64,000 nt of DNA, taken from contig OZ237775.1 in assembly GCA_965178125.1 (NCBI GenBank), forward strand, positions 124,001-188,000. Direction: 5' to 3'. How positions within the stretch are numbered: the stretch's first letter is position 1; every line of letters starts with the position of its first letter. The position numbers and the translations under genes were made by a program. Below, one piece after another: positions 9,364 through 59,275 of the stretch. The notes beneath the pieces were generated by a model that was not told the DNA's origin, did no database searches, and worked only from the letters and a program-made list of their open reading frames with translations. The DNA comes from Bilabrum cf. latius. Taxonomy: Eukaryota.

Positions 9364-9733
9364 TGAACCAAGGCTTGGCCTCTGCTGGAATCGCGCTTGA
9401 GTTCGTCGCCATGCACATGCTAACCGGCGCAGACCGACCATTCTCAAGGACGCAAAGTTGGACTGGGCGGCTCGACATTTTGGACGCTTTGTGCGCACCC
9501 TGGCGCTGCTCTGCACCTGCTCGTCAACCTGACTCCGTGCAGAGGAGTAAGATTTGCCCACACCGGGGTCACTACAATTATTTCGTGAATCGTACCAATC
9601 AAATAGAAAAAGGTGCAGTGATTCCCTGGGACAAGCCCCACAATGGAAGTTCAAGCTGACAATGGAAAGTGCACGTTACCATAACGAAGAGTCGTTGGAG
9701 GGAAAGGAAACTAGGCAGCAGTACAGCCTATCT

Positions 9734-12700: not shown

Positions 12701-15004
12701 CTGGGGGGCAGGGCTGGGGGCCTTGACCGTCCGATGGTCCCGCCGGTGCTGCCCATGCACGCCGACTTGGGCCCATCGCAAGGGCAAGGGCAAGGGCAAG
12801 AGACGCGTGGGTATGCCCAGGGACACGGCCGCAGCCTGAGCGAGCGCAAGCCGGGGCTGCCGGGCCGGGGCCGTGGAGGGGGCGGGGGCGGGCGAGGGCG
12901 GCGAGGGAACAAGACGAAGCGGCCGCTGCACCGAGGCAGAGATGCTGCCGCGAGGGACCGTGCCGGAAGCGGTGTGACGAGTGCAGCGGCGAGCCAGGGC
13001 GATGGCGTCCGGTCCTCCTACGATCCGGCCCCGTACAGGTGGACGCCCCGTGTGGACGGGCCGGGCGCCTCCTCCTCCACGGGTGCCTCAGGGAACAACA
13101 AGCAGAAGAGGAGGCGTCCTCGCGGGGCGGATCCCTCCCCCATCCAGCTGGATCGGGTGAGGGGGTCCATCGAGCAGGCGCAGCGGGCGGCGCAGAGGGC
13201 GGGTGCTGCATCTGCCATGGAGGACGAGGCGGGATCCAGGGAACAAGGGGGTGGTGGAAGGGGAGGGGCAAGGGATGCGGGTGTCTCGCCCAGGGGACTG
13301 CACAAGAGAGGCGGCAGCGGCGGGCGGGGCTTGCATTCGCAGTCGCACCCAAACCTCTCGCCCAGACCCCTCCTGGGTGGTGCGGGGCTTCAGCGGGGCG
13401 GGCTGGCCGGGGCTGATGTGGGCAAGGGGCAGGGGAGGAGAAAGGGGGCGGCGGAGGCAGGGCTCCAGGACGGGGTGTGGGGGGGCCAGAAGAGGCCCAG
13501 CGGGACTGGCTCAACGGCTAGTGGGGCACATGGTGGGAACTCCCGGCCAGGGAAAGCGTGGCTGGGGGACTCTGGTGAGGAGGAGGAGGAGGAGGAGGAG
13601 GTGGTGGAGGGCAGGCGAGGCGGTGCAAGAGGAGGAGGGGATGGGGGGGAGCTGAAGCCGCTGTTTGGGAGACGGAAAGCGGGGGGTGCAGGGGGCGCAG
13701 GGGGGGCAGGGGGGGCAAGGAGACAGGTCGACAGCACGTCGTCTGAGGACACAAAATTGGCGGTGGTGGAGGAACTTGGACAGGAGGGTGCGGGTGCATC
13801 GCATGGGGGTGCAGTTGCAGCTCGAGTCAGAGGTCCCTCTCCGCCCGTGGGAGACGACGCTTCCTCAGGGACTGGGACAGGGACTGGGAGGGGGCGGGGC
13901 CGGGGGCATCAGAGGGGCCGCGTGGCTCCGCACCGGCGGAAGCTGCTGGGCCAGGCACAGGAGTAGGGCGTGGCTGTGGGTCAGGGCAGGAGCAAGGGCC
14001 AGGGCCAGGGGCAGGGCAAGGAGCAGAAGGCGAGGCTCAGGCAGCAGGCGGCCATCTACGGGGCGCAGGTGCACCCAGCCGGTGCGCGGCGCCGCGGCGG
14101 AACCAATCAGAGGTCTGGGTCACACAAGCGAAGCGGGGATGGGGATGGTGGCGCCGCGCGTGCGGATCCACTTCAGCCGGTTCCGCACGTGGCCAAGCCT
14201 CGGCCTCAGCTGTCACCTCTGCCTGGTGCTGTTCCCAGGGGCGTGTCACCCGAGGGAACAAGCCAGGGAACAAGCGATCGGATGCAGACTGGACAGGGGC
14301 ACGAATCATGGGACGCAGGTGAGGAAGACCCAGACCCCTACGAGGCTATCGGTCTGTCGGGGCTCGGCGCAGGCTCAGGCATGGGCATGGGCATGGGCAG
14401 TCCGACCGGTGGGCTGGGCTCCCTGGCTTCCCCGTTCCCGCCCCCACCTCCACCAGAGAGCAGCAGGACAACTGGGACCGGTGCGCCGGTTGCAACCGAT
14501 GCTGGATTCCGGGGCGGGGATGCCAGAGGGATGGATGGGGGCAGTGGCAGCGGCAGTGGCAGCGGGAGCCGTCGAGGGTCAGCGGAGTCGCCCAGCGAGC
14601 TTGACAAGCCCAAGACTACTCCGAGGAGGGGAGAGAAAGAGGGCGAGGAGAAGCAAGGGGGCGAGGGTGCATCGCATGGCGGTGTGCACGCTCGACCGAT
14701 CGGTGCGTTGATGTCACCGCCGAGGTCTGAAGGCATGGGTGCATCGCACGGTGGCGTCTCCGGGGAGAGCGGGCTGTGGAATCGGAAGAAATCACCGCTG
14801 CTTGGGGCGCGAGCTGGTGCAGCGAACGAAGGTGCGGGGGAAGGGAAGGACGAGGACGATGACTTTGGGGACGATCTGGATGCGAGCAGGGAGGGGGGCA
14901 TAGGTAGAGGAGGCGAGCACAAGGCGGGCGGGGCAGAGGAAGAGGCAGGAGCCAGTAGCAGCGGCAGTGGGCCTGACCTTGCCCCAGGGCAGGACATGAT
15001 CTGA
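9734..15004 (+). CDS. Kinesin-8 family (KIF18/KIF19-like) motor with coiled coil and long Gly-rich low-complexity tail
   Basis: NILVAVRVRP, P-loop YGATGAGKT, SSRSH, DLAGSE, EGANINRSLLALGNVINAL, YRDSKLTRLLKDSLGGN, ETLNTLKYANRAKNIK. ORFs 9554-12499, 12596-13966 and 13970-15004 join via 7 TAGs and end at TGA. Alternative start at ATG 9662. Confidence 0.9.
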
Positions 15005-20755: not shown

Positions 20756-23215
20756 TCACACCTGCTCCTCTATGGACCCAGAGGGCGAGGACTGGATCGA
20801 ATCAGCCTGCTGTTCGCTGGCTGCTGCTGCCGCCAGCAGCGGGTTTGGAGAGGCGTGGTTGGATCCTGGTGTTGCGGGCGACCCGCGACCAATCACCACG
20901 CCTCCCCTTGCACTTGCGATCCGCGCAGCCCGTGGATTCGGGCCGTTCCCACCAACTTCGGCCGAGGACGATGATTTCTGATCTGCCCCCCCATCCCGCT
21001 CCACCGGTGGACTCAGCGGAGCCCAGCCCGCTACACGGGGCCCCTGCCTCACCGGGGACCCACTGGCATCCTTCCCACCCTCCTCCCTTTCGCTCTCTTC
21101 CCACTACTCACCACCCACTGCCTGCCCCTGGCTCAAGGCCCGCAAAATGCCCACAGCTCTGTCAGAATCATGGCCCAAGTCCTCATGATCCGCTGCATGT
21201 GACCCATCGATCGTCTCCAGATGCACCTGTATTGTCCCTCTCGCAGACCGAGTGGCCACTGCCACTTGCGGCATCCCGATCAGGCTCATGTCATCGTCCA
21301 AGGAGTCAGGAGGGGGCGCGCCTGTCCCTGTACATGCACCTGCGCCTGTTCTTGACTTTGAGGCAGACCCGGTGTCAGGTCTCGAGGAGACACCGCTTGC
21401 TGCATCGCTGCCTGCCATGCAAGTGCCAGTGCCACCAGCATACTGCTCGCTGGTGCTTTCTCGCCCGAGCACCCCGCTCTCGCCTTTGACCACCCCGCCT
21501 GCCTTGATCGGATCAACTCCACTCCCGCTCCCATGGTTGACGCTGTCCCTGTCGCCGAAATCCCCAGGCTTGACGAGCCCAGCCCCGATGGCCACGGCTC
21601 TGGCAACCATGGCATCGCCAGAGACATTCACGACGGTGATGAACCGATCCAGCAGCCAATCGAGGCTGTACAGGTACGCCACCTCAGCTGGTAGGGCAAA
21701 CCCGCGGAACACGCCCTGCCACACGGTCAGCAGCAGGATCAGCCCGGCATTCGGGATGGGAGAAGACCCCACCGACCCCACAGTGGCCATGAGTGCAGCT
21801 CGCAGGTAGGCACCGGGCCCAATCTCAGAGCCAAGCCCGCTCACCTGTGCCATCCAGAGCACCGATATACTGAAGTACATCCCCGATCCGTCCATGTTGG
21901 ACACGGCCCCGATCGAGGCGACTGACCGCGCCACTCCCGGCGGTACACCGCTCGACTCGATGCACTTGATGGTCACCGGTAGGGTGGCGCCGCTGGAGGC
22001 GCATCCGAACGCGAACGTCATGGCAGGCACGTTCCCCTTCATGTATTCGAACGGGTTCTCTCCCGTGACCAGCCAGTAGGCCAGGGGCACTACCACCAGG
22101 GCGTGCAGTAGGTATGCAGTCAGGTTGGCAGCCACCAGCAGACCCAGGCTCTCAAACAGCGCTCCGATGTCCTCCACATCCAGCAGGGCGCTGCAGACCA
22201 GGAAGCCCACGGCAATGGGGGCCAGTGTGATGATCCGTGTGACGAGTCCCATGAGCATGGAGTTGAGCTGCCCCGCCAGGTCGAGGATGGCGTTGGGTGG
22301 GACGTGTGCCCGGCCCTCAGCAGCCGGCTGCTGCTGCCGCTGCATGTTGCGAGTATCCGGGTCAGTGGCCCGAACCCGAGGAAAAGGAAGAGGACCTGCG
22401 GCGGCCGATGCTGCTTTCTCTGCCTGCTCTGCAGATGCTTCATGGCAGCGGCTGGTGTGCGCCGACTCCGCGGAGAGCAGGCCCTGTACGGCTCTCGCCT
22501 TGGCTCCCGCTTCCTGCCTGATCTTGAGAGCCACTGCCAGTGAACCCACGGCCAGGCCCACTGCGATCACCCCCAGGATCGAGGGAAGGGCAAACACCTC
22601 CATAATGTTGGACGGGAACACTTGCTCAAACACTCCGACGAGCGTCTACGTGATGGTCTGCGACTGAGGCGGCTGCTTGAGCAGGATTTCATTCCCGCTG
22701 GGCATGACTGGCCACCTGAACTGAGTGTCCTGATCTTCATCGAAAACCTGGCATGTTGGAGCAGCATTGACAGCCGAATTCGATTGGGCCAAGTATAGCT
22801 CATTATCTTCGCTACTCCTAGGACACTGGATCAGCATGACTTCTTGTTCGTCGATTGGGTCGGGGCGGTCCGCCCTAAAAGTGGACTGGAACGCCGCAAA
22901 AAGAAGGAGCCCTTCCATGGTTGAAGCTATGGTAGTAAATCCGTAGAACAGTGCAGCCCTGCTTGCTATTTGCCCCTCCTTGATCCTCATTAGTTGTCGA
23001 ACCCCCATTATCATAGCGCAAGCGATCAAAGGAACCACGATAGCCTGCAAGACACGGAGGAAAATGTTCCCGGGCAAACCGATCCAGGCCGCCGCATCGT
23101 CAGATGGTTTGGCCAGCGACAACAGCAGGCCAGCGGTTGTTCCAAGCACGCAAGTGATCGCCATATGGACGCCTGTCCCGAGGCCAATGAACTGCCTCCA
23201 GCACTCCATCGCCAT
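20756..23215 (-). CDS. SLC1/DAACS family transporter, copy 2 (inverted paralog)
   Basis: Same motifs (AFGCASSGATLP, GAVSNMDGS, DWLLDRFITVVNVSGD). ORFs 22646-23215, 21104-22633 and 20756-21052 join via TAGs 22646 and 21104; ends TGA 20756-20758. Confidence 0.9.
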
Positions 23216-36885: not shown

Positions 36886-37021
36886 ATGACTGCACTGCTA
36901 CCAGAAAAAAAAGATATTCTGCTAATTGAAATCCAGTGGCATATCAAGAATGGCAAACCGGAACCGAAAGTGGTTCTCTTCCTTGCTTCAATTTGCTTTC
37001 ACCGCCGCTACTTGGACGGTC

Positions 37022-41499: not shown

Positions 41500-44400
41500 T
41501 TACAGCCCTGCTTCGTACCTACGCCTCGCCTCCGCCACCGAGAACACGGTCGCCCCCGTGCCCTTGCCCACCTCGATCCCGGCCCGCAGCCCCTCGATCT
41601 GCACCTCGTACGAGCCCTCGCGCACCGCCAGCTCGCCATCCTCGTCTGCACTGGCCAACACAGAGGCGGGGATGGTCAGGTGCAGCACTTGCGACTTGCC
41701 AGGGGCCAGCACGACCGTGCGATCGAAGTCGAATAGCTCTTTGCGGGCACCGGACACCCGCAGCCCCTCCCCCCCTGTTGGGGTCACGAAACCAAGCACG
41801 CTCCACGCCCCCGCCACAGAGCCAGTGTTGGTCACAGTCACCGTGTACGACATGTCCTACACACCGCTGGCCACACCGGTCCCCGCCACAGCCATAGGTG
41901 TAGCCCCAACCCCGGAGGCCCATTGCACGTCGAAGGTGGTGTAGGACAGGCCGTCCCCGAATTCCCACATGGCCCCGTCTTCGGGCCCGTAGAACATGTA
42001 CGTCAGCCCGGGCACGTCATCGTGCGGCTTGATGCTCATGTCGAACATGGATCGCTTGCTGGTGATGTCGCTCGCGTACCAGGTGGTGGTCACTCGCCCG
42101 CTCGGGTTGGTCTGCCCCAGCAGCACCTCAGCGATGGCGTCCCCTCCGAGCTCCCCGGGGTAGTGCGCGTCCACGATAGCAGGCACATTGGCTTTGACCC
42201 ATGAATCCCCCAGCACCCCGCCGTGGATGTAGACCACCACCAGCGGCTTGGACCCCGCCGCCTGCGACACCTGCTGCAGTAGCTCCAGCTGGTGACCCGG
42301 CAGGTCGATGGACGTCCTGTCATGACCCTCTCTCTCCTGGCCCTGGTCCAGCCCGAGGAACACAATTACGGCATCAGCGGACTTTGCAGCTGATACTGCC
42401 TGGCTGAAACCGTCAGTACTACCGCACCCGACATCGCAGCCCTGCGCGTACTGGATCGATGCTTGGGGCAGCGCACCCTGCATAGCAAGCAGAGGGGTAT
42501 GCGAGTTCACGAGCACGTTGGTGCCGTGGTAGTTGGATAGCATGTCCTGGGATGCGTTTGCATGCGGGCCGATCATGGCAATAGAGGACAGCTTGGTCGC
42601 GTCCAGTGGCAGCACCCCGCCCTGGTTCTGGAGCAGGATGATGCCCTGCCGCGCCGCGTCAAGGGCCAGCTCTCGGTGGGCGGGCGTGTCCACGACCTCT
42701 GGCCCCAGCTGCCGGTAGGGGTTTCTCTCGGGCGGGTCCATCGCACCCAGTCGGATCACCTGCCGGAGGAAATTGCGGATGGCCGTCTGCAGCGCGGGAG
42801 TGGTCACATTGCCGTCTTCGACAGCCTGCGGAGGACGGCAAGGATAGTTCGAGATTAGCGGAAAATACATTATGGAGCGATTCTATGTATTCCAGTACTG
42901 CAGATGGGTGGTCAATATGCACTGTTATTGACAAACCAGCCTGACCTCACATTGACTAGGTTATCCAGGTAATATTTCCCGCAATCCACATCAGTGCCAC
43001 CCTCCTCGATGCCTGCCTTGACCGTGGCGCTGGGGGTGTCCGTGTAGTGGTGATTGTCAATGATGTTGCTGATGGCGCCGCAGCTGCGACAGTAAGGGAA
43101 GGGCAGACAGGAGCAAAGTGCAAGAAGGTGTGCCGGGCTTCAGCTGGATCAGTGGCACAAGATTCACCAAGGCAAACGGCGAAAGCACATAGCTGCAGGT
43201 AGACTCACTCGGACGTGATGAATCCGTTGAAGCCCCACTCTCCTCGGATGATGCCGTTGTTGAAGAACCCGTTCGCGCACGAAGGGATGCCGGTGGTCGC
43301 GTGGGTCTGGTTGCGCACCGTCACTGCGTTGTAGCTGCACATGGTGCTCTGCGCCTGCCCACGCTCGAATGCAGACCGGAACGCGGGCCAGAAATACTCC
43401 ACCAGTTCGCCGTATGTCACGATGGCGTTGAAGTCGTGTCTTGTACTGCCGTTCCAATTCTCGAGATCGTAGGCGGAGAAGTGCTTGGGTGTTGCCACCA
43501 CCCGGATGTAGTCCTCGTCATCAATCCCCTGCAGCCCGGTGACGTACTCAAAAGCATACTCCGAGTTGAGCACTGGGTCCTCCCCGGGCACCTCCTGTCC
43601 CCTGCCCCAGCGCGGGTCACGGAACAGGTTGATATCGGGAGCCCAGGCCAGCCCAGTGCCCCAAGGGCCCTGGTTGCCCAGCGATCGGGCTTCGTACGAG
43701 ATGGCAGTCGCCATGGACCTCCACAGGGTGCGGTTGAACGTGGCCCCTGTGACGAGTGCGTGCGGGAAGGAGGTGGGGCACCCGGTGGAATCGGGACCAG
43801 AGGCCGCGCCACAGCCGCACAGCGGGCCGTGAAGCGCCTCTGCAAACTTCATATCAGGCACGCCCAGCAGCGCAGCTCCGCTTGAGTGATACCCCTGCAG
43901 CATCCCTGCGGCCTGCTGCGGGGTGACCCTGGGCACGAGATCGTCCAGCCGCTGCTCGGTCGGCAAGTCCGGGTTGCAGTACGGGCGGTCCGGGAAATTG
44001 CTGCAGTTGAAGTTTGAGCCGCCATCCATGCAGATGGAGGAATTAGATGCGGTTGCAACCTTACCAGTGGACGCTTCATAGTTCCATTTCTGTGTATCCT
44101 TCCCGTTGCACGGGTTCAAGACGACTGGAGTCCCGGCAGCCACAACTCCAGAAATGTCCAAGCAGTGGCCGTTCATCTTGGACACGATATTCTGCGTCGA
44201 TGCGCTGTAGTTCCACTGCTGGTTCCAGGCGGTGTTGGTAAGAGTGTACAGGTGGACCTCTGCGCCGGTATCGTTAGACCACTCGTTGACGTCCAGTGTG
44301 AGTTGCGGATCGGTGCCTTCCAAGAGAAAACGAGAATTCGGGTACCTGCGGGCATGAAAAGGGGTCAGCACTAGACAGAGTCAATCTATTATTGTATTTC

Positions 44401-44590
44401 TTGTCATGTATCTGAACCGTATCAGGTATTGCCTGAGGCGTCATCCTAACGCGTCCTGTTGCAGTTGCCATTGCTGAGAAGGCGACGACGATAAGCACTC
44501 AAACAGCTGGACGATATTTCCCTTTGCTGGCGCGGGCTGTTTTGCAAACGTGATTGTACCCAAAGCAATGATGGCCACCAAACATTGCAT
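41500..44590 (-). CDS. Secreted ricin-B lectin + GH3 beta-xylosidase-like glycosidase, copy 2 (inverted paralog)
   Basis: Exons 44590-44451, 44345-43209, 43083-42951, 42825-41500, with the same intron positions as copy 1. TAG 41857 is shared with copy 1. Apparent stop TAA 41500-41502 overlaps a GTAAGT donor-like hexamer, so the end is uncertain. Confidence 0.9.
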
Positions 44591-45262: not shown

Positions 45263-48200
45263 ATGGGCCAGCCCAATTCGAAGCCAACTGACGGTAAAGG
45301 GGATAAGAGCACCAGCACGACAGGAAGTGGGACAAGTCAAGTCGCCGCCCAGGCGCAACACCCGAGGCCGAACTCAACTACATTGAAATCTAATGCAAGT
45401 ATAGGCAGTGATGCTGGCACGGGGGAGCAGCCAGGAGACAGCCTGCAACTTATCAGCTTGCGTGAATCGCACCCTAGCGGCAGCACTAGGTCTCACAACG
45501 GACCAGCGCCTCGGAAGCATGATTCGAACGAGTCTCCGAATGGCGCAGCATAGCGTTCTCTACTCCCCGCACCGACAGTCTTGCCCTCTCGGGTCGTCCC
45601 GTTGGCATCTCTTCATCCAGCGAGCGGCCAGCGCCCCTCGAAGGCAATGGGCAGGGTTCCATGGAAGCGGGGCGCGCTGCTCGGCTCGGGCGCGTTTGGC
45701 AGGGTCTTTTACGCTCTGAACCAGGACGATGGACGGACCATGGCAGCCAAGCAGGTGCCTCTCTACCGCAGGAACACGGAGTCCAGGAGGAGAGCCAGGC
45801 GGCGTCCTACCATGGGCGGCGCCGCGCGCGGAGGTTCCGCACTGGAGGAGTCCTTGTTGGAGGGTCTGGACGAGAAGACGAGGGAGCTCGTGTGCGCCCT
45901 GCAGCAAGAGATCAAGCTGCTCATGGACCTGGACCACCCGAACATCGTCAAGTACCTCGGTGCTCAGAGGGATCCTGTGGGCGGGGGCAGCGGCAGGCTG
46001 GTGGAGCTCACTGAGGTGGTGGAGGAGGAGGAGGGGGAGGGGGAGGGCTCGCATGAAGGTGAGGCGGGAGTCGCTGGGTCCACCACAGGGTCCAGCGGGA
46101 CGGGCACCGGCACGGGCAGTAGCAGCAGCGGAAGTGGACAGGCCAGGGTTAGGGCCGGCACTGGATCGGGATTCAGGGAGGCTGATGTGACTGGGATCTC
46201 AGACCCGAGCACCGGCTCCACGAGCGGAACCATTGGTGGCGCCGCGCAGGGGTCAAGGTTGCGACGAACGGGTCCTCGGCGTCCGTAGGGTGCATCACAT
46301 GGTGGTACAGGTCACACACACGCCACCGGCGACCCGGACCAGGGCAGCTCGTCTCGCCCCCGTGAGTCGGGGCAGGGTCAGGGGCAGGGGCAGGGGCAGC
46401 CGGCATTCCTGGTGCCCCGGATCGATCTGGGAGTCTCCGGTGCTCAGAAGAGTCGCAGTGGGGGAACGTTCGGCCAAGGATCCTCCGAAACCACCGAGGG
46501 CGCCTGGCAGGACCGTGACCAGGACCCTGATCATGACCGATCCTCCTCGATCGCTTCGTCCAGACAGAGGCGCCTGGGCCTGAGAGAGGACGTGCTCAAG
46601 ACGCCCGACTCGGAGCCGTTATCCCACGTGGAGGGTTTCGCGAGGGCCAACCGCAGGGATGCAGAGGTGCTGAGGCACCTGCCCTCTTCCGGCTCCGAGT
46701 CCTCTCGCCCCAGCGGGCTGGCATTCGAGCCAGGGTCAGCCTCCGGGTCAGGGTCAGTGCGGAGGTTCAATTCCGCCGAGACGCCCGAGTCGAGGCGGGA
46801 TTCTAGCCGCGGCAGTGACGTCATAGTGCAACGCAAAGCGCGGGGACAGGGGCGAGGTCGTCCCCGTGATGGGGTGCTTGCGTTGGAACGGGGCCGGCAT
46901 GCCACGGGGAGGCACAAGAGCTCGAGGGGTCTCGGCCGGAAATCCATGGAGCTCGCTGCATCAGGCAGCTTCTCAGATAGCTCCGGCGAGGAAGCCGAGG
47001 AGGAGCGAAGGCATCAGCGTGGTCGTAAGGGGAACAAGGGTGGGGGGAGGCAGGGAGGTTACGTCAGTCACGAGGTGACGAGCGGATCCCGGCTGCTGCG
47101 GGTGCAGTACTCGTCCAAGGAGAGCAGCACGAGCAGCAGGCGGGGGCAAGGGAGCAGTATGGCTGCGATTAGCGCCCGAGGCTAGAAAGAGAATGGTGAT
47201 GGTGGTGGTCAAAGTGGCGGAGGCAATGGGGGAAATGCGAGCCCTGGTAACCACAGGGACACAGGTGACGGGTGGAGCGAGCTAGACATGGTGCCTCCCA
47301 GCCTGCCAGTGGGGCCGCAATCGGGGGAGAGGAACAGCGGGGGCGACGAAGCAGTACATGGGATGCATGGCATTGAATCGCGGTCGAGCCCTGGGTGGGC
47401 GCCAGCTCCCATCGCCGCCACTGCTGCTGCGCCTGGGTCTGGTCCTAGTCGCCATGGCTTGCGAGCAGGCAGCAACAGCCAGGACTCTGGCGATTTGCAG
47501 CGGGTGCACCGCGGCGGTGGCACGCGGGACAGCAAAACGACTCAGGGCGCGAATGACGAGTCCGATGGCGGTCGCGGGGATGCATCCGGCAGCAAAGGTT
47601 CCCTCCGTGGTGTGAGCGAGAGCAAGCATAACCTATCGCAGCTCGATGCCTCGTCACTCGGCAGCGAGATGCAGGGCAGTGCGTTGCTTCCTAGTCGGTC
47701 CTCATCCAGCTCCGAACCGCGTGCCCTCCGACGCGTCAGGACACGCCACAGACTGATGCCTGACGGCAAGCCCGAGGACTGGGAGCAAGGCGCTGTGTGC
47801 AACCTGACCATTCTGATGCAATACGCCTCGGGGGGGTCACTGGCTCAGCAGCTGCAAGACTACAGCCCCTTGCAGGAGAAGATCGCTGCAAAGAGGACAG
47901 GGGACATTCTGGCAGGGCTTATGTACCTGCACTCCAGGAGCATCATCCACCGAGACGTGAAGCCCGCGAACGTGCTGCTGGACGCCGCGGATGGGCGAGC
48001 AATGCTGGCGGATTTCGGGGCCTCTGTGCGGGTCAAGTCGATCGCTGCGATGGAGAAGCGAATCCTGAGGAGAGCTTCGTCGTCAGGATTCGATCCAGAG
48101 CTGGGAAGCGACAAGGCGGATGACAGGGAGGGGGCGGGGCATCGGTAGGGGTATGGATCTAGCGCAGCAGCCGCTAGGCCTGCTTCTGCTGTGGGTGACA

Positions 48201-51200
48201 CAGGCAGGGGTGGTGCTAGTGGCCGCCCCAAGCCTATACAGCTCGCGAGACTCTAGACAACCGGCGGCACTGAACTCAATGATGGCGCCAGACCTGGCAA
48301 CACAGAGAGCGGACACCTGACGCCATTCACAGATGCAGATGGAGGCGCCGGCTCCACAAAATCTGGGAGCGAAACTGTTGGAGCAGCAACGGCCGATGCG
48401 GCCACAGCCGCTGCTTTATGCGCACTAGGCAATCCATAGGGGGGCACCTTGGTGCAGGACCTCATCGATCTGGAGGGTGGACAGGGCAACCACAAGCACG
48501 GTCGTGTTCGTTTGCACCGCCACGGACCCAAGCACGGCCATGGTGGCAGCAAGGCGGGTGCCAGCACAGACCTCTAGGACTAGGGCGTGCAGGTGCAGCA
48601 ACTAGGCAGCGATTCGGATTCTGATTCCGGGTCCGGATCAGACAGCGCGCGCTCCCTGAAGGGGACTCCCCTGTACATGGCGCCGGAGGTTGTGAGACAG
48701 GCCAACTATGACGGGAAGGTGGACATATTCTCGCTCGGGTGCACCGTGGTGGCGATGATCCAAGGAAACCCGCCGCTTGCGCACAAGTTTGACAACCCGA
48801 ACGCCCTCATGTTCTACCTCGCCTCGGGTGGATCCATCCCAAAGCCAACGAATGGCTCGCCTGAGTACCGGCACTTCGTCCGCATGTGTCTGCAGCGCGA
48901 GCCCGACATGCGACCGACCGCAGAGCACCTCTTGCGACACCCATGGATCTTGCGCATGCCAATGGAGGACCCAGCCGCAGACCCGGAGATCGTCTAGTGG
49001 GAATTCGAACCAGAGGAGCAGGACGAGGAGGGCCCGAGTATAGAGGCAGGATCGGACTCGTCCTTTGGAACCACGCCGATGCATGGCACCGGCACTGGCA
49101 CTGGTACTGGCACTGGCGGACATCGCACACCTCGTGCCGACACGCCGCTGTTTAGAGAGGATGGGCGTCAGAGTCCCGGCGCAGCTGGTGGTGGTGCAGC
49201 AGCAGATGGTCCCGGTTCAGCGCCCCCCCACTCTCGGACAGCAACCGGCAGTGACTGGCAGGGTCACTCGTCACGCGAAGTGCCGGTGGAGCCACAAGCA
49301 TTAGACAAGCGAAAAGGAGAGAAGGGCATGGTTCTTGAATTGGGAAATGCTGCCAGGCGGGGTCCCGGGCCGGCCCTGACACGCACCGGGAGAGTGGATT
49401 TGGCCGCAGCGGGAAGTTCCGCAGCAGCGGGTCGTGGCCGAGTAGGTGTAGAAATGGATTCAAATTCCGACTCTTCGCGAGAGGGTGACAGTGACGGGCA
49501 GGGGGAAACTCGTCGAAGCCCACGACGGGCTAGGGAGGGCGGCAGGGAAGGCGGCACGGGCAGGGGATCTGCCCTGGGCGGTGCCTTGGATGAGAAAGAC
49601 AAAGCTGAGGCCAGGCGCTTGTTCTACGGGCCCGGTCCCGGGGTGCCTCTGGATTCAGGAAGCAGATCCAGAGGGATGACTGGCAGCAGCAGCCGCGACA
49701 CTGCGGATCTAGCGAGGGTGGGTGGGAGGGCAACGGGGGTGTCACCTTACGGGGGTCGGGCGGGCAAATCCGGAGGGACGGGCGACAGCGCCAGCGCCGT
49801 GCTGCGTGCCATGGAACACAGCGAGCATGGGCGCGGGCTGCCTCAATCCACCTCTGTAAGCTCTGCGGATGGGTACAGAGACAGTGAGGCGGACGATGCT
49901 GGTGGCAGGGAGCTGGATCTGGATGGGGATGTGGAGGGTACAGGCACAGGGGGGGGCGAGGCAAGCGCGATGGGAATGCGGCTCGCCAGCTCAAGAGAGG
50001 CATCCGGCTCCGAATCCGATTCGGACCCGGAGCCTATACCCGGCTCTGAGAAGCATGTGGATGGGCCCACAGCGGGACCATGGTCAAGGTCTGCCAGGCG
50101 CCGTGGGTCTGCAAGTGACGCAGCCGGTCCCAGCGACGGGACAAGCGGTGCAGCGAGACTAAGAGGCACGGGAGGTTCTGTGCAGCCCAGTCACGCGATG
50201 CAGTTTGTGAGAACAGTAGATTCTTCGAGCGCTAGTCCTGGCACTGATATCAGTGGGCCTGTGGACGACTCTCGGTGGGGAGGGATCGGGGGCGGGCTGG
50301 GTGGTCACAGCTCCAGCTCCTTCGAGCCATATGTGTCTGAGGGATCGACAGGCAGGCCCGTCGTGTCGGATGGCTCCAGGGGATTTCGAGCTGTGACAGG
50401 AAGCTCTGAATCTCATGCGCATGGGCATAGGCATTAGCATGGGCATGAGCATGGGCATGGGCAGGGTGATGTCACGGAGGCTGGCAGCACGCCGCGGCGC
50501 AGCCGATTGCCGGCAGCTGGAGTTGTAGACGGGGTGCATGGCATGCGCGTACACTCAAATTCAGGTGTGGGGACAGGCAGCCTGCATAGAAGTCACGGTG
50601 GCATGCGCTTGCATCTGCCCGGTGGTGGTGGTGGTGGTAGTGGTGGTGGTAGCGGTAACACCGGCATTCGTGTCGATGCTGGTCAAGACACCACATCGGC
50701 ACAGAATCACGACCATGTGTACAGAGGGGTATCGCCCAGTGGACAAGCACCGCACGGTGGCTGGCCATTGCCGGCAGGGGCTCAGCCTGACGACACGACA
50801 AGGAGGAGGAGGGGCCTCGAGTCGGCCGGATCCAGCGGGTCACGATCCGGGGCCACGCCCGGCCTTCACCCTAGGACGCCCGGGTCCCAGCTAGCGGCAA
50901 ACAGCTTTGGCGCGCAAGGCTCACATGGTGGAAGAGGGGGGGGAGGGGAAGGGGGAGGAGGAGGAGGCAGCCGCAGGGCAGGCAGGGAGAGGGGCAGCGG
51001 GTCCATGGACTCGGCACACTCCCAAATCCCCGGCCTGCTGGGGCAGGGTCAGTTCCGCCGGGACCGCGTGGACCCCACTGCTCCGATCGATGCCTCACAC
51101 GGGTCCTCCTCCGAGTCCTCTCGAGGCATCGGGATCGAGTCGATGGCGACAAGCCCCTGGATCGGCGGAGGAAGCTCCCAGAGAACAACGCCGGGCAGCG

Positions 51201-54034
51201 GCCGCAGCCAGGGAACAACAGACCCCCGGCATGCTGCAGTCGGGCCAGGGAATAGCAGCAACACCAGCGGCACCAGGCACTCCCCTCGGTCCTCCACACG
51301 GACCCGGACACCCCTTGGCATGGCAGCCAGGACACTGGTGCACGACCCCGCGGCCGCGACCGGGACGGGATACGATTAGACAGCACTGTCAGGGGCTGGG
51401 GGGCACAATCACTCGTCACACGCTCGGCAAGGCGGATCGGACGGCAGCAGTCGCAGCAGAGGGGGCGACGCGCTGGACGCACTCGTCACATAGCAACCGG
51501 GCCGATTCGGCTCGCACAGCCGCGGGCCGAGCCTCGACAGCGTACGGTCGGCTACCGGTGGTGGTGTGACGAGTGTGGGCAGCCGGGGCCGCGGGGGCCT
51601 GCCCTCCGTGCTCCTGGACCCTATGCAGCGCCCTTCTTCCGTGATGAGTCTGCACAGTCGGGGCGGGCACAGCGGGAGCGGGAGCGGGTCTGGGTCTGGG
51701 TCTGGGTCTGGGTCTGGCGCCGCGCTGACGCAGCCCTCTGGTTCCGCTTCGGGCAGCAGCATGACCGGTGATTCCTAGTCCAGGAGGAGGAGGAGGGGGC
51801 GAGTGGGCGCCGGCGGCGGTGGGGATGGGGATGGGGATGGCATAGGGGATGGCGGCGGCTCATCTTCCTCCTCGGGGACGGGGCGCCTGCTGCTCGCAGG
51901 GAACAGTTAGGGGGATGGCAGGGGAGGGGGGAGGAGGAAGAGGACGACGAGCCGGGCACACAGGCAAGAGGCCGGACTGCGGTACATGGGCGAGGACAGC
52001 AGCAGCAGCAGGAACAGGAGCAGGAACAGGAACAGGGTCGAAGCTATGGGCAGCGGTGTTGAGGAAACTAGCCGCAGCGGGGTCCAGCTGCTGCATGGAG
52101 AACATGTACCGAGTCACGGGAGGAGGCGCGGGATGGAGGCAGGCACGGCGAGGGATGCAAGAGTGCCAGGGATGGAGGCAGGCACTGCGAGGGATGCAAG
52201 GGGGCCAGGGGAAGAGGCTGTCCCAGCTGCGGATCCGCTGGCCCTCGGTAGCATGCTGCATGCAGTGGAGAGACGAAGGGGGGGCGATGTGCCACCGAGC
52301 TCGCTGCTCTCTCCTTCGGGACGAAACAGTGGAAGTGGCATGCCCGGTAAGATGCCCTCGGATAATGTGACGAGTGATGGTGTGACGAGTGCGAGCGGGC
52401 TGGGCACGAGGATGAGACCCAGCCAGGCCACGCGGCGAGGGGTCGGCTCCCCGACGTCTCGGATCGGATCACCCACCTCCATGTATCCTGCAGGTGCAGG
52501 TGCAGGTGCAGGTGCAGGTGCAGGTGCAGGTGCAGGTGCAGGGTACGGTAGTGCCAGGCGGTACGATTCTTCCGAGAGTTCTCTGTCGTATCCCCGCTCG
52601 TACCGCAGGGGCATCGGGCCGGCGGATGGGAGCGGGAGCCAGAGCCAGGCCCAGCGGCAGGTGACCTCCACCACGATGCGGAGCATTGGCGGCGCAACAG
52701 TCGACATGATGGTGGAGCCTGTATCTGGGAGTGTGATGAGTGAAGCGGGTGCGCCCCATGGTTCACTGCAAGGAGTGGGCGGGCTTGGCGCTCACAGTGT
52801 GGCGAGTGGAAGCAGGGGGCAGCGGGTACCGACGGACGACGGTTGGACGAGCGCGAGGATGGATGGCCTCGGGTATGACGTGCATGAGAGGGATGGGGAG
52901 GGGGAGGGGGAGGACGACGATGGAGAGCGGTCTGTGGTGGATGATCTTGGTGTGACGAGTGCGAGAGAGGGTCACGAGATCGAGGTATCGGGGGGCACTG
53001 CCTCAACGGGCGGGGTACCCAGCACCAGCGGGAGCGGGGTCGGGGTCGGGATGGGGCGAAGGAGTGCTAGAATGGGGCGGCGCAGGGTGGTGCAAGGGCT
53101 CGATAGGGGGTCACGGCTATCCCCGAATCGCAGTGTAGAGAGCAGTACTGGGTCTTTTCCTGGAGAGCTTGCCACTGGCACTGGCACTGGCACTGGCACT
53201 GGGTCAAGTTCTGGGATGAGGCTTGCGAGTGCACTGCATGGCGGTGCACCGCATGGAGGAGACTCAGCCGGCCCCCGCTCACAGGTGGGAGCTGACGTGC
53301 CCCGACTCGGAGCCGGAATGACCCGCGGGGTGTCCATGGGCAGTCTCCTCCCCTAGTCCCCGTCCCGCTTGTCCCCCACGCGCCATAGGGGGACTGCAGC
53401 CGGGTCTACCGGTGTGGGTGCAGGGCATGCAGGTGCAGGGCATGCAGGTGCAGGGCATTCAAGTGCAGGTGGTCCAGCTCCATCCATCCGCAGAGGTGCA
53501 AGCGAGGCCGATGCCAGCCAGGCAGCCCCGGTCATGTTCGGCAGGAGGAGGGGCCAGTCTCGTTCTGGCCCGCTGGATCTGACGGGCCCTGCATTGCATG
53601 ATGGTGCAAGTGGAAATCAGGGGAGGCTCACATCCATGGACTCAGGGCTAGGGGCAGAGGCAGGGGCAAGGATAGGGGCAGGGGCAGGGACATGGGCAGC
53701 GGGTGTAGGTGGAGGAAGGCGGTCAGCTGAGCATCAGCAGCCCACCGTGCGGCCAGGGGTGCACAAGAGCCTGAGCCAGAGCGTGGGATCCAGGCTGGGG
53801 GCGCAGGTGAGGCAGGCAGTGCGTGTGACGAGTGCGAGCGGCGGCCCGACGGAGGTGTCTGCCTAGCAGCAGGGCGCGAGGCAGCGGCAGCGGGGCAGCA
53901 GCGATGCTGTGCCTAGGGCGAGGGGCGGGGGTAGCGGCGCCGCGCTTCGGTCGGTTCCGCTGCTTGCGACCCCTTCTGGCGGGATGGATCCGCGGTCGTG
54001 GTCAGGGCGGCGGCACGGGGATGGGTACAGGTGA
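45263..54034 (+). CDS. STE11/MEKK-type MAP kinase kinase kinase, about 2920 aa, kinase domain interrupted by large low-complexity inserts
   Basis: MGQPNS (possible myristoylation); WKRGALLGSGAFGRV, MAAKQV, EIKLLMDLDHPNIVKYLG, ILMQYASGGSL, IIHRDVKPANVLL, LADFGAS, LKGTPLYMAPEV, DIFSLGCTV, RPTAEHLLRHPWI. Single frame, 16 TAGs, no TAA/TGA until TGA 54032-54034. Confidence 0.85.
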
Positions 54035-54296
54035 TGCACTGCCGACTAGGTTGTCTCATCTGCAGGTGTGTAGTTGATGATGTTCGTGGCCCATGCAAGT
54101 GGCCGCAAGGTTGGGAATACACATGCGCGCGAGACCATTCCGAAGATTCTAATCAAGTATAAACCAATTTTCATTGCGATAAATAGACTGGTCGTCATAG
54201 CCCGGTGTTCAAGCGGCGGTGTTCCTGGGACTACCGGTAGCGTGTACTTCTGATTACGGTGGGCGTAAATGCCCACTTTGCTCCTGTAAACTCAAC

Positions 54297-56387
54297 ATGG
54301 CAAGCGCTGGACCTCCAGAGAAGAAGGCTCGCATTGAAGTATCATCTTCCTCATCTGCTGCGAGCGCTGCTGGAGGCGCAGCCACTGGAGGAGCTTCCGT
54401 GGCTACCTCTTGGGTTGAGGTGTCTGAGGCCCACGGCTTCCCTATCCAGAACATCCCATTCGGGGTCTACAAGCCGAAGGAAGAGAAGTCAGATGACAAG
54501 GCGGTATGCGCTAGCCGAATCGGTGATTTCGTGAGTATCGTTTTTTCGCGTGTACTATCGCGTTGTGACATGGCCGCGTGGACGAATCATGCCCAAATTC
54601 CTGTGCATTCCGGTTTCAAACAACTGCTTCAAAGCATTCTGTATTTAATGGTTATTTTTATTACAAGTGCGGCTCTATTGAGCTCCTTTGTCACGGACAA
54701 TCAATGCTGATGTGCCTGCGATCTTCCCCACTGTTCGGGGAACGGACGACTCGCAAATTGGTGACCGATTCAATCCTCCACAAGCGTACGCCACACAATT
54801 TATATCGTAGGCCATTAACCTGCGAGCCCTAGTGGAAGCTGGACTTCTCTCTGGCGATTGGGCCAAGTCACTGACCGAGGAGACGCTCAACTCGTTCATG
54901 GGGCAGGGCCGGGCATCGTGGAGGGACTGCCGAGGGCAGCTGCAGGCCCTGCTGGCAAAGGGCGGAGACGGGGAGGCCAAGGTGCGCGGCGCTGGTGCCC
55001 TGGTTCCGCTGTCGGAGGTGCGCATGGTGCTGCCGGCCCGCATCGGCGACTACACGGACTTCTACTCCTCCCGGGAGCACGCCACAAACGTGAGACTAAG
55101 AAGAAAAACGGAGCGCCTCATGTTTTGATGATGATGCGTGCATATAAAAGGGTCTATCAAAGCACAGCTTGCGAGGGTACCTCACCGATGGGAGGCTGGG
55201 AGGCTGCCGGCACACAAAACCACAAAACCGCCGCGTTACGCCTCGACCCCCTGCCCCCTTCTTTGTTCTGTCCCTTTCTCCCCCCCCCCAACCCTGCCCC
55301 CCTGTATGCTTGCTTTCCATTCCTATGCCTATCATCGCATCTCATCGCAGGTGGGCACCATGTTCCGCGGCAAGGAGAACGCCCTGCAGCCCAACTGGCT
55401 CCACCTCCCCGTGGGCTACCACGGCCGGTCTTCCTCTGTCGTGCTGTCGGGCACGCCCATCCGGCGCCCCATGGGACAGCTGCAGAAGGACGCGACGGAC
55501 CCCAAGCAAGGCTCCGTCTTCGGCCCTTGCCGCCTCATGGACTTCGAGATGGAGGTGGCCGCGTTCGTTGGCCCAGGGAACAAGCTCGGCGAGTCGATCA
55601 AGATCGAGGAGGCGGAGGAGCACATCTTCGGGCTGGTGCTCATGAACGACTGGAGCGCGAGGGACATTTAGAAGTGGGAGTACGTCCCCCTGGGGCCGTT
55701 CACCGCCAAGAACGTCATGACCTCCATCTCGCCCTGGATCGTGACTCTGGATGCCCTTGAGCCGTTCAAGTGCAAGACATCGGCGGGGGAGCAGACGGAC
55801 CCCAAGCCCCTGCCCTACCTCCAGGACCCCGACTACAGGTCCTACGACATCGACCTAACAGTGAGCAGAGCTGAGCTTGGGTGTCTAGTGTGCGGTTGCA
55901 CTGCATTGCTGCATATGCCCTATACTGCTCGCAACTCAGAACTCAAGCGGGGACTCATATGTGTGCCCCCTCCCTATGTTCCCCCGCTCCCACTTGTTCC
56001 CTCACTTGTTCCCTAAATCAGGTTGCCATCAAGAACAAGAGCCTTCCAGCAGGCCACGTCGTGTCCAGGACCAACTTCAAGTACCTCTACTGGAATGTGA
56101 AGCAGCAGCTCGTGCACCACACTGTGACTGGGTGCAACATGCAGCCGGGCGACCTCCTGGGCTCGGGAACCATCAGCGGCCCTGACCCGGGCATGTTCGG
56201 AAGCATGCTGGAGCTCTGTTGGAAGGGCACCAAGCCCATGGACATGCCCGACGGGTCCACCCGAAAGTTCCTCGCAGACGGCGACAGCGTGGTGATGACG
56301 GGGGCATGCACGGGCGAGGGCTACTCGATCGGGTTCGGGGCCGTGGAGGGTGAGGTGACGCCTGCGGCTGGTGCCCCTGCCTCATGA
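54297..56387 (+). CDS. FAH: Fumarylacetoacetase
   Basis: Exons 54297-54530, 54811-55089, 55351-55860, 56022-56387. [63 protein letters not shown] (TAG 55669-55671), [32 protein letters not shown]. Confidence 0.97.
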
Positions 56388-56527
56388 GCGGAAAGCGACA
56401 AGAAGGGGGTGCCGGGCCGAGGGCAGCTTAATTGAGCAAGGTGTGGCAGTTGGGGGTAGTGTGGATTTGAAAGCCGGGTAGCACAGTTGTAGCAAGGGGG
56501 CAAAGATAGAATTTCCGTATTTGTTAG

Positions 56528-57394
56528 TTAGTCGCAACACTGGGCCACCAACTTTCCCCCGCTGTAGAAAGGGTCCAGCAAAGACAGTCCCATCGAAGAG
56601 TTCTCCGACTTGAACAGCCCAATGGAGACCTAGGAAAAGTGCACATGGAATCCGAAGCAAATCTGCCCACCCGTGTGCCCAAAAGTTGCCGTGCCCTGCC
56701 CCCAGGCGCCCGCCAGGCCGACCGCGGCTTGTCCAATCGTAAAGATCCCTATGGCCACCTGCCCCACGGCCACGATTCCCCACGTGATCTGCCCTACGCT
56801 AAAGAAGCAAATGTTGTCCCTCGCGTCTGGAATCGTCGCGCACACCGCCTTGTACCCAATTTTGTCGGTAAACAAAAGCTAAAACGTGAATATAGTTGCG
56901 GTAATCAGGGCTCCGCACCAAATTACCATCCCGAATCCCCAGCAGATGTAGGTTGATGTGTCCCAGTCGCTGGGGGCAGCACACCGCCAGGTAGAACAGT
57001 CCAGGAACGATCGCTTATCCTTCGGCGTGTCTCCCGTGCCAGCGGCGGCGCTGCCCGATGCCGCCTGCCCATCTATCTCAAGCTTAGCAGGATTGCTCAA
57101 CTCTGCAACGCAGTGGTCGACCAGCAGCCAGCAGTTCTCGTCCCAGGCAGCCGGGTCTTGCACTTTCTGGAACCGGTTGTAAAATGCCACTAAACCGCGG
57201 TCCATATTGACTGCTTTTTGCAGCTCTTTGGACTATCTTATCGTACCAAGCGTGTCTGTTAGATACTGCTTAATCTGACTGTCCGGACATGCCATCATTC
57301 TGTCCACGATATCATCCCAGACCTGCTGTGGTGTCTGCGGCGGTGTGCTGGCGGGCTAATCAGCCTGTTGTAGCAGCTGGCTGTCGCGAATCAT
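56528..57394 (-). CDS. Hypothetical membrane protein with periodic xxGQxxxG repeats
   Basis: ATG 57394 (MIRDSQLLQQ); 4 TAGs join ORFs 56879-57205 and 56630-56875. TM ICWGFGMVIWCGALITATIF, then SVGQITWG/AVGQVAIG/TIGQAAVG/AWGQ/TGGQICFG; ends at TAA 56528-56530. Confidence 0.7.
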
Positions 57395-57585
57395 TCATCC
57401 AAGTAAAGAAGCACAATTTAATTGAAGATTGTTAGATACTACCTCTATAACCAAGTGGATATGGCCCCGCTTGCAGCTGCAGGCCAACTTGTCGAATTAA
57501 TGTGACGTGCACTTTTGGCAAAATTGCAGAGGCACAAAAGCACCCGGGACCAATCGCACCCCGCTTCGACCTTGCGTACTGAAAC
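57395..57585. promoter_or_regulatory. Probable short bidirectional promoter region
   Basis: 191-bp AT-richer gap between divergent ATGs at 57394 (-) and 57586 (+). Inferred from geometry only. Confidence 0.4.
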
Positions 57586-58818: not shown

Positions 58819-59275
58819 TCGGATCAATGATCGGATCATTCGAGGGTCCAGCGACGTGGGTGGGGCGAGGCTAGGGGAGTGCTAAGCCACTGAATGCACA
58901 GCACAGCACGGCACTGCAGTGCAGTGCAGTGGGCGGCCTACCCGAGCCTGGAAAGTGTCGGGAGGGTAAGCGTCAGTAGATGCTAGCATCGATGCTAGTC
59001 TACTTCGATGGCTGCTGTATTCTTGGGTCCTAGCACGCCCGTTGCAGCGGCAGGTGCGGCAACTGCAAGCCAGATGCAGCGGTAAATATTCGAGAGCCAG
59101 GCCTATAATTGGCCTTGCTGCTCGAAACTGCTGCGCTGTGCTGCATAGCACATGTCGCCGGCATCCCACTTGCTGGCCCCTTTTTTGGCATAACTCAGAC
59201 TTTGTAGTGTGTTATTTTGGATATCCGTTTGGGGCGTTTCAAGGCGATGCAGTACGCTGCTCAGAACAGTATCCG

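What the first reader, a model, noticed from the sequence alone, without database searches (positions are those of the whole stretch)
56528..56632. UAG and UAA appear uncoupled: TAG is sense while TAA never occurs in frame and seems to remain a stop
Seen: no in-frame TAA in my gene models, including the 8.8-kb MAP3K frame with 16 TAGs, although CAA Gln codons are used. Sixteen genes end in TGA and two in TAA (56528 and 41500). Reading through TAA 56528 would run antisense into FAH; TAA 41500 lies two codons from the paralog's stop but overlaps a donor-like GTAAGT. Established: most nuclear reassignments change UAA and UAG together (table 6). UAG-only changes are rare; I recall Iotanema spirale (Gln), a rhizarian (Leu) and some phyllopharyngean ciliates. 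Inference: a table-15-like code in a GC-rich genome with 87-280-nt introns, unlike typical AT-rich ciliates, possibly an undescribed independent origin.
Basis: partly seen in the sequence, partly recalled or inferred. Interest (0 to 1): 0.85.

Follow-up and report, generated by a model that had tools for sequence, protein, structure and literature searches.

The report
UAG codes glutamine; UAA still stops
In this GC-rich protist genome the stop codon TAG is read as glutamine while TAA and TGA still end genes, a rare uncoupling of TAG and TAA that seems to sit in a lineage (probably a stramenopile) where I found no report of it.

Summary
With TAG read through, the longest frames grow from 1018 to 2930 codons. 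In 20 coding segments (16,061 codons) there are 81 in-frame TAG, 0 TAA and 0 TGA. TAA occurs 30 and 53 times in the other two frames, and about 21 in-frame TAA would be expected if it were a glutamine codon used like CAA versus CAG.

TAG is glutamine. It falls on Gln240 of fumarylacetoacetase (Q in 17 of 17 homologs), on a column with Q in 13 of 16 relatives of the membrane protein, and opposite Q in a transporter paralog.

TAA ends two genes. The membrane protein stops where 15 relatives stop (1 residue before to 36 after), whereas read-through adds 170 codons. The GH3 paralog stops two codons before its twin's TGA.

This is a table-15-like code with TGA as the main terminator (16 of 18 gene ends). 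A kinesin-8 tree places the organism among stramenopiles, next to Cafeteria, and rejects ciliates. Ten literature searches found no stramenopile case. The tRNA and eRF1 basis could not be tested.

The parts
56528..56530 (-). TAA terminator of the membrane-protein gene
   Evidence: It is codon 289 of the frame from ATG 57394. 15 homologs that cover the C-terminal block end between 1 residue before and 36 after this point, median +7. The next in-frame TGA is 170 codons further on.
56531..57394 (-). Coding sequence of a 288-residue membrane protein of no Pfam family, with 4 in-frame TAG
   Evidence: 83 relatives with E <= 1e-3 among 1.84 billion representatives. Contigs of runs X5 (56492-57442) and X7 (56501-57439) cover it, with no differing letters.
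56630..56632 (-). In-frame TAG (codon 255) at a glutamine-conserved column
   Evidence: The alignment column holds Q in 13 and M in 3 of the 16 relatives that cover it.
55669..55671 (+). In-frame TAG in FAH exon 3, at the position of Gln240 of mouse fumarylacetoacetase
   Evidence: The PDB alignments show Q opposite it (1qqj_A residue 240). Q in 17 of 17 homologs. Spliced contigs of three runs carry this exon with no differing letters.
54285..56387 (+). Fumarylacetoacetase gene ending in TGA 56385-56387. Exons reach to 54530, then 54811-55089, 55351-55860 and 56022-56387.
   Evidence: GT..AG joints 54530/54811, 55089/55351 and 55860/56022 appear in contigs of X5, X6 and X7. Pfam PF09298 and PF01557.
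41500..41502 (-). TAA terminator of GH3 paralog b
   Evidence: Likeness to paralog a ends at the preceding CTG. Paralog a has two more codons and then TGA 26653-26655. The best solved homolog, 7vc6_A, has 10 residues left after the aligned part against 15 in the query. The next in-frame TGA is 39 codons on.
41503..42824 (-). Last exon of GH3 paralog b (GH3 C-terminal and Fn3-like domains), with one TAG at 41857-41859 shared with paralog a
   Evidence: Intron joints CT..AC at 42824/42950, 43083/43209 and 44343/44449.
22646..22648 (-). In-frame TAG of transporter paralog SDF2, opposite CAG/CAA-encoded Q of paralog SDF1
   Evidence: SQTITXTLVGVFEQ against SQTITQTLVGVFEQ.
45263..54034 (+). Protein kinase gene with long low-complexity inserts: 16 in-frame TAG, 0 TAA, ends in TGA
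9662..15004 (+). Kinesin-8 gene: 7 in-frame TAG in the tail, several inside Gly-Gln repeats, ends in TGA. Its motor domain was used to place the organism.

Best explanation
This is nuclear DNA of a GC-rich, intron-poor protist, probably a stramenopile near the bicosoecids. Its code reads UAG as glutamine and keeps UAA and UGA as terminators, the assignments of NCBI table 15. UGA does most of the terminating and UAA a minority. Shown here: UAG is translated as Gln, UAA is never translated in about 16,000 codons, and UAA sits where two proteins should end. Inferred from the accounts of other UAG-only codes (passages of PMC5304391): a tRNA-Gln with anticodon CUA pairs with UAG but not UAA, and the single release factor eRF1 has lost its grip on UAG while still recognising UAA and UGA.
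For: TAG is sense. The longest frames rise from 1018 to 2930 codons when TAG is read through, and reading TAA through as well adds almost nothing. There are 81 in-frame TAG in 16,061 codons. Spliced contigs carry the FAH TAG unchanged.

TAG is Gln. It falls on FAH Gln240, with Q in 17 of 17 homologs and in the three PDB alignments printed. In the membrane-protein column, Q occurs in 13 of 16 relatives. The SDF paralog has Q in a conserved context. TAG also occurs inside Gly-Gln repeats (GQGXGQ).

TAA is not sense. There are 0 in-frame TAA against about 21 expected (P about 6e-10), while TAA occurs 30 and 53 times in the other frames.

TAA is a stop. The membrane protein ends within the range of 15 relatives, 1 residue before to 36 after. 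GH3 paralog b ends two codons before its twin's TGA, and 15 residues past the aligned part where the best solved homolog has 10. As a weak hint, contigs of two runs from one study end 27-36 bases past TAA 56528 with no in-frame TGA in between.

TGA is a stop. It ends 16 of 18 genes.
Against: Only two genes end in TAA, and only 64 kb could be read. No genome is held. The window has no tRNA gene and no Rfam match, so neither tRNA-Gln(CUA) nor eRF1 was seen. TAA 41500 overlaps a GTAAGT that could be a splice donor. One search printed only 15 of 32 joints, so splicing there is not excluded.

Two observations lean towards Glu-like positions for TAG. A 94%-identical relative (P0268) has E where the window has TAG at codon 54. 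One TAG also lies where most LRR repeats have E. Both are variable sites, and Q for E is a conservative change. A TAG that also ended some genes would be invisible to frame-based models. The placement rests on one gene.
Confidence: 0.85

Rival explanations
1. Both UAA and UAG code for glutamine (table 6), and TAA is merely rare because the genome is GC-rich.
For: TAA is the rarest of the three triplets in the window: 177/194 against TAG 424/428. Third positions are G/C in 61-80% of codons in the long frames.
Against: The A-ending partners CAA, GAA and AAA are used at 0.26 of the G-ending ones. At that ratio 21 in-frame TAA are expected and none is seen, while TAA occurs 83 times in the other two frames of the same segments. 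The two TAA that follow coding sequence sit at the expected protein ends.
Confidence: 0.04
2. UAA is unassigned or avoided rather than a working terminator. Only UGA ends translation, and the two TAA-ended models are wrong because of a missed intron or a longer protein.
For: Only 2 of 18 gene ends are TAA. TAA 41500 overlaps a donor-like GTAAGT.
Against: Read-through of TAA 56528 adds 170 codons that none of 15 relatives has. Contigs of X5 and X7 stop 27-36 bases past it (a weak hint). The GH3 twin ends two codons later in TGA, and the solved homolog ends at the same place.
Confidence: 0.06
3. UAG is ambiguous: sense inside genes, but still a terminator near some mRNA ends, as in Condylostoma or karyorelict ciliates.
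For: This cannot be excluded from frames alone, because a gene ending in TAG would be modelled as running on to the next TGA. At gene 58970-60178, contigs of three runs end at 59987-60019, just before an in-frame TAG at 60032-60034.
Against: 0 of 18 modelled gene ends is TAG. TGA or TAA follows each conserved C-terminus tested, namely FAH, GH3 and the membrane protein. At 60014-60028 there is also a donor-like CAG|GTGAAG and a run of ten G, either of which could stop a contig.
Confidence: 0.04
4. UAG codes for an amino acid other than glutamine, for example glutamate as in peritrich ciliates.
For: E stands opposite TAG codon 54 in the 94%-identical relative P0268. One TAG lies at the E position of the LRR repeat consensus ALAESL.
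Against: The conserved columns give Q in 17 of 17 (FAH), Q in 13 of 16 with no E (membrane protein), and Q in the SDF paralog.
Confidence: 0.01

Closest known systems
Iotanema spirale (Fornicata): UAG = Gln, UAA kept as stop (PMC5304391, passages read)
   Same: The same assignment of UAG and the same uncoupling from UAA. The predicted mechanism is also the same: tRNA-Gln(CUA) plus an altered eRF1.
   Different: Iotanema is an unrelated lineage. UAA is its dominant stop (passage), whereas here TGA ends 16 of 18 genes. Iotanema was known from transcripts only, whereas here there is genomic DNA with introns. The eRF1 of this organism was not seen.
Phyllopharyngean ciliates and Protocruzia tuzeti: UAG (not UAA) = Gln (PMC11687900, passages read)
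   Same: The same code variant, which arose more than once.
   Different: The kinesin-8 tree puts the window among stramenopiles, and an AU test rejects a clade with ciliates. The window is 61% G+C with long single-exon genes.
NCBI translation table 15 ('Blepharisma nuclear code'; the name is recalled, not from a call)
   Same: TAG = Gln, with TAA and TGA as stops.
   Different: The table describes a code, not a lineage. Membership here means only the three assignments, which were tested.
Rhizarian exLh (UAG = Leu) and Scotinosphaera (UAG = Ser), with UAA kept as stop (passages)
   Same: UAG alone is reassigned.
   Different: The amino acid is different.
Table 6 codes (UAR = Gln): many ciliates, ulvophytes, hexamitin diplomonads, Streblomastix. 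Amoeboaphelidium protococcarum is cited as UAR = Gln.
   Same: Glutamine is the new meaning of UAG.
   Different: UAA is sense there and not here. I recall the original aphelid paper speaking of UAG only. I could not read it, and the named relatives of the window's proteins are stramenopiles, not fungi-related.

Membership tests
Table-15-type nuclear code (UAG = Gln; UAA and UGA stop) | UAG is translated, and as glutamine | tested here: met
   81 in-frame TAG in 16,061 codons. Q in 17 of 17 homologs at the FAH position. Q in 13 of 16 relatives in the membrane-protein column. Q in the SDF paralog.
Table-15-type nuclear code (UAG = Gln; UAA and UGA stop) | UAA is not translated | tested here: met
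   0 in-frame TAA against about 21 expected, with 30 and 53 in the other frames. TGA-only frames do not merge coding parts across a TAA.
Table-15-type nuclear code (UAG = Gln; UAA and UGA stop) | UAA terminates genes | tested here: met
   Two genes. For one, 15 relatives end between 1 residue before and 36 after the same point. For the other, the paralog and a solved homolog end at the same place. The sample is small.
Table-15-type nuclear code (UAG = Gln; UAA and UGA stop) | UGA terminates genes | tested here: met
   16 of 18 gene ends, with 0 in-frame TGA in 16,061 codons against 365 and 285 in the other frames.
Table-15-type nuclear code (UAG = Gln; UAA and UGA stop) | A tRNA-Gln with anticodon CUA, and none with UUA | not testable with these tools
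   No tRNA gene in the window, no Rfam match, and no genome held.
Table-15-type nuclear code (UAG = Gln; UAA and UGA stop) | eRF1 N-domain changed so that UAG is no longer recognised | not testable with these tools
   eRF1 is not in the window, and no genome is held.
Table 6 code (UAA and UAG = Gln) | In-frame UAA at glutamine positions | tested here: not met
   0 of 16,061 codons.
Context-dependent stop/sense codes (Condylostoma, karyorelicts, Blastocrithidia) | The reassigned codon also ends genes | tested here: inconclusive
   0 of 18 modelled ends is TAG, but frame-based models cannot see a TAG end. One unclear case lies at 60032-60034.
Ciliophora (lineages already known to read UAG as Gln) | Groups with ciliates in a gene tree | tested here: not met
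   An AU test of window plus 4 ciliate rows as one clade gives a log-likelihood 49.9 lower, p = 0.0057. One gene only.
Stramenopiles | Groups with named stramenopiles in gene trees | tested here: met
   For kinesin-8 (48 rows, 425 columns), the window lies in a clade of 30 rows (SH-aLRT 98) whose named members are all stramenopiles, and is sister to Cafeteria roenbergensis at 94. The best named FAH hits are also stramenopiles: Hondaea 71%, Mayamaea 71%, and oomycetes about 70%. This rests on a single-gene tree. 18S and phylogenomics could not be run.

The most novel reading that the evidence does not exclude
This is the first nuclear genetic-code change seen in stramenopiles. It would be an independent origin of UAG = Gln with UAA kept as a stop, in a GC-rich genome where UGA is the main terminator. 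The organism's single eRF1 would then have an RF2-like specificity (UAA and UGA but not UAG). A 94%-identical relative shares at least one in-frame standard-code stop at the same codon, so the code may mark a small clade rather than one strain.
Probability: 0.5. Interest if true: 0.7.

Novelty: new member of a known kind. Interest (0 to 1): 0.62.

Why it matters
UAA and UAG nearly always change meaning together, and cases where they part are few (passages of PMC5304391 and PMC11687900). Each one is a natural experiment on how eRF1 tells A from G at the third stop-codon position. A case with genomic DNA, in a GC-rich genome that terminates mostly at UGA and lies outside ciliates and metamonads, would widen the conditions under which this change is known to arise. 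It would also offer a new eRF1 variant and a new tRNA-Gln(CUA) to study.

There is a practical side. Gene callers using the standard code or table 6 will break or misread the genes of this genome. Predicted proteins in public collections are already cut at TAG: P0268 stops exactly at codon 172.

Tried and rejected
- **Whole genome:** none is held, so no genome-wide tally, tRNA search or eRF1 search was possible.
- **Sequencing runs:** no RNA holder is listed. Runs X5, X6 and X7 nevertheless hold spliced contigs.
- **Depth near TAA 41500:** depth is low in the bin 40801-41467 next to TAA 41500. This is a part without cover and I do not use it as evidence. Only 15 of 32 joints and 24 of 319 loose ends were printed, so splicing at GTAAGT 41500 could not be checked.
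- **ESM Atlas:** The call on the kinesin motor returned kinesin clusters from animals, plants and nematodes, which does not help placement.
- **Cluster look-up:** the look-up of 10 FAH hits gave no organism names.
- **Metagenome scan:** the scan with the FAH alignment gave 80 loci, the best 72% identical and many probably bacterial. No close relative turned up whose code could be read.
- **First kinesin tree:** A FastTree version left the window unresolved at the base of the stramenopile clade.
- **Paralog comparison:** 12 of 15 TAG-bearing aligned positions lie in poorly conserved stretches and say nothing.
- **Aphelid idea:** I first thought of an aphelid (Amoeboaphelidium) from memory. I dropped it because the named relatives are stramenopiles.
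- **Supplements:** the supplements of the papers were closed. They may hold eRF1 alignments and codon tables that bear on the comparison.

Full report
**What is there.** The window is 61% G+C. It carries long genes, mostly of one exon, on both strands:
- an RNI-type LRR protein (1-5307);
- a cap guanine-N2 methyltransferase-like gene (7174-9084, minus);
- a kinesin-8 (9662-15004);
- a thioredoxin-domain membrane protein;
- two dicarboxylate/amino-acid symporter paralogs;
- two GH3 glycosidase paralogs with ricin-type lectin domains;
- two SRCR-domain proteins;
- a GT61 glycosyltransferase;
- an 8.8-kb protein kinase gene;
- fumarylacetoacetase (FAH);
- several genes without a Pfam family.

Contigs of three public runs (X5, X6, X7) skip GT..AG or CT..AC stretches of 105-280 bases in the FAH gene, the GH3 gene and one further gene. 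They therefore derive from spliced RNA, and the organism is a eukaryote with short introns.

**TAG is a sense codon.** With all three standard stops the longest frame is 1018 codons. With TAG read through, the longest frames are 2930, 1829, 1818, 1769 and 1437 codons. The kinase frame 45245-54034 has 16 in-frame TAG. Over 20 coding segments (16,061 codons) there are 81 in-frame TAG. The FAH exon 55351-55860 is carried by spliced contigs of three runs with no differing letters. The TAG at 55669-55671 is therefore in the mRNA, neither spliced out nor edited.

**TAG means glutamine.** Four observations point the same way.
- The FAH TAG lies opposite Q in the three PDB alignments printed (residue 240 of chain 1qqj_A). 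It lies opposite Q in 17 of 17 homologs aligned. From memory, not from a call, Gln240 belongs to the FAH active site.
- In the membrane protein encoded at 56531-57394 (minus), TAG codon 255 (56630-56632) falls in a column with Q in 13 and M in 3 of the 16 relatives that cover it.
- In the symporter pair, TAG 22646-22648 stands opposite Q within SQTIT-TLVGVFEQ.
- Several TAG lie inside Gly-Gln repeats (GQGXGQ).

Against this, the other TAG columns are variable. At codon 54 of the membrane protein a 94%-identical relative (P0268) has E. One TAG in the LRR array lies where most repeats have E. Of the 15 TAG-bearing positions in the three paralog alignments, 12 lie in poorly conserved stretches and are uninformative. 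No conserved column points to any residue but Q.

**TAA is not a sense codon.** The same 16,061 codons hold 0 in-frame TAA and 0 in-frame TGA. In frames +1 and +2, TAA occurs 30 and 53 times and TGA 365 and 285 times. CAA:CAG is 126:479, and the pooled A:G ratio for Gln, Glu and Lys codons is 0.26. If TAA were used like TAG in that proportion, 21 would be expected, and the Poisson chance of none is about 6e-10.

The segments were first found as frames closed by TAA or TGA, so I checked for circularity. Frames closed by TGA alone run past a TAA only upstream of start codons or in introns, except at two gene ends. TAA is not excluded by mutation either: the 15.8 kb outside the segments holds 94 and 89 on the two strands.

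**TAA ends two genes.**

The first is the membrane-protein gene.
- The frame from ATG 57394 reaches TAA at 56528-56530. The next in-frame TGA is 170 codons further on (56018-56020), antisense to the last FAH exon.
- A search of 1.84 billion representatives gave 83 relatives, and I aligned 18 of them. The 15 that cover the C-terminal block end between 1 residue before and 36 residues after the window protein's last residue, median +7.
- Contigs of X5 and X7 cover the gene from about 57440 down to 56492 and 56501. That is 27-36 bases past the TAA, and no in-frame TGA lies in between. Both runs belong to one study, and contig ends are imprecise, so this is only a weak hint.

The second is the GH3 paralog on the minus strand.
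- The two paralogs are 94% identical in the last exon, and they are alike up to the codon CTG. Copy a goes on GGG GAG TGA, while copy b goes on TAA GTG TGG.
- The best solved homolog (7vc6_A, 743 residues) aligns to query residues 6-425 of 440 and to its own residues 317-733. The two proteins therefore end within a few residues of each other. Read-through would add 39 codons.
- The TAA overlaps GTAAGT. I could not exclude a splice there, because the read-laying run printed only part of its joints.

In all, 16 modelled genes end in TGA, 2 in TAA and none in TAG. One of the TGA models is weak.

**How it most likely works.** Shown here: the three assignments. Inferred: the machinery. Passages of PMC5304391 argue that a tRNA that reads UAG while ignoring UAA can only have anticodon CUA. 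They add that eRF1 must lose UAG recognition. In Iotanema the eRF1 carries T32G in the GTS motif, and in the rhizarian exLh it carries an L69A-like change. The same logic applies here, but the window has no tRNA gene and no Rfam match, and no genome is held.

One difference from those two cases is that UAA is their dominant stop, whereas here TGA dominates, as expected at 61% G+C.

**Whose genome.**
- No protein of a named organism is closer than 71% (FAH) or 54% over 93% of the query (kinesin). The named best hits are stramenopiles:
  - for FAH, Hondaea, Mayamaea, Pythium and Aphanomyces;
  - for kinesin-8, Cafeteria roenbergensis, a Tara 'chrysophyte H2', Pelagophyceae sp., Ectocarpus and oomycetes.
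- In an IQ-TREE tree of 48 kinesin-8 rows (425 columns, LG+G4), the window lies in a clade of 30 rows with SH-aLRT 98. All 15 named members of that clade are stramenopiles. Within a subclade at 93 the window is sister to Cafeteria at 94.
- The 47 other rows were my own pick from the 240 listed hits. They comprise 29 named rows and 18 unnamed ones that scored high.
- Holding the window with the four ciliate rows costs 49.9 log-likelihood units, with AU p = 0.0057.
- This is one gene. I take 'stramenopile, perhaps near bicosoecids' as probable, not settled.

**Is it known.** The code itself is known.
- UAG = Gln with UAA kept is reported for Iotanema spirale, for two phyllopharyngean ciliate lineages and for Protocruzia tuzeti.
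- UAG alone is also reassigned to Leu in the rhizarian exLh and in a ciliate, and to Ser in Scotinosphaera (passages of PMC11687900 and PMC5304391).
- Ten full-text searches found no nuclear stop-codon reassignment in a stramenopile.
- For the candidate papers I read only passages (PMC11412368, PMC6723347, PMC13768787, PMC12574857). These concern mitochondrial or organellar codes, or other taxa.
- The library lacks most subscription journals, and supplements were closed, so 'not in print' is not proven.

**Verdict.** This is a table-15-like nuclear code in a GC-rich protist that is not a ciliate and probably is a stramenopile. I rate it a new member of a known kind. [quoted passage not shown]

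Noticed in passing
window 58970-60178 (+), especially 60010-60035: Contigs of three runs cover 59264-60019 and stop at a donor-like CAG|GTGAAG (60014) and a run of ten G. This is 13 bases before an in-frame TAG (60032-60034), while the frame runs on to TGA 60176-60178. The contigs might stop because of an intron, an assembly break or a real mRNA end, and I could not tell which.
   Followed up: partly
window 56477-56501: The FAH gene (+) and the membrane-protein gene (-) converge. The FAH contig of X6 should end near 56477, a figure inferred from its length. The contigs of the other gene end at 56492 and 56501, so the two mRNAs would end 15-24 bases apart. The 3' untranslated part after TAA 56528 would be only about 30 bases.
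   Followed up: partly
window 23663-26655 (+) and 41500-44450 (-): Two GH3 glycosidase genes with N-terminal ricin-type lectin domains lie as an inverted pair about 15 kb apart. They are 94% identical in the last exon and share an in-frame TAG. They flank the two SRCR genes, the gene at 36926-38149 (no Pfam family) and the GT61 gene. Their likeness stops exactly at the end of the coding sequence.
   Followed up: partly
window 45263-54034 (+): The protein kinase domain is split by in-frame low-complexity inserts. The Pfam matches lie at residues 847-926 and 1127-1229, and the N-lobe motif lies near residue 140. The whole sits in a 2923-residue protein rich in Gly/Ser/Thr dipeptide repeats.
   Followed up: no
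window 45054-47013: Contigs of X5 and X6 differ from the window at about 4% of positions here (26 letters and 2 gaps in 681; also a 15-base gap and a 12-base insert). Elsewhere contigs of the same runs are identical to the window. This could reflect a second allele, a paralog or a second strain.
   Followed up: no
protein P0268 against window 56879-57298 (-): A 139-residue predicted protein in the public collection is 94% identical to residues 33-171 of the membrane protein. It stops exactly before TAG codon 172. A close relative therefore has a standard-code stop at the same place, and its gene was cut by the gene caller. It has E where the window has TAG codon 54.
   Followed up: partly
window 7174-7600 (-) and 1-5307 (+): There are tandem coding repeats in two genes. 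The C-terminal part of the methyltransferase-like gene has seven copies of an 18-residue unit (GFAPRSPDEPPPGDSGVG). The LRR gene has dozens of nearly identical 28-residue RNI-type units.
   Followed up: no
window 18079-20580 (+) and 20756-23218 (-): Two sodium:dicarboxylate symporter family paralogs, 54% identical, lie tail to tail with 175 bases between their TGA stops.
   Followed up: no
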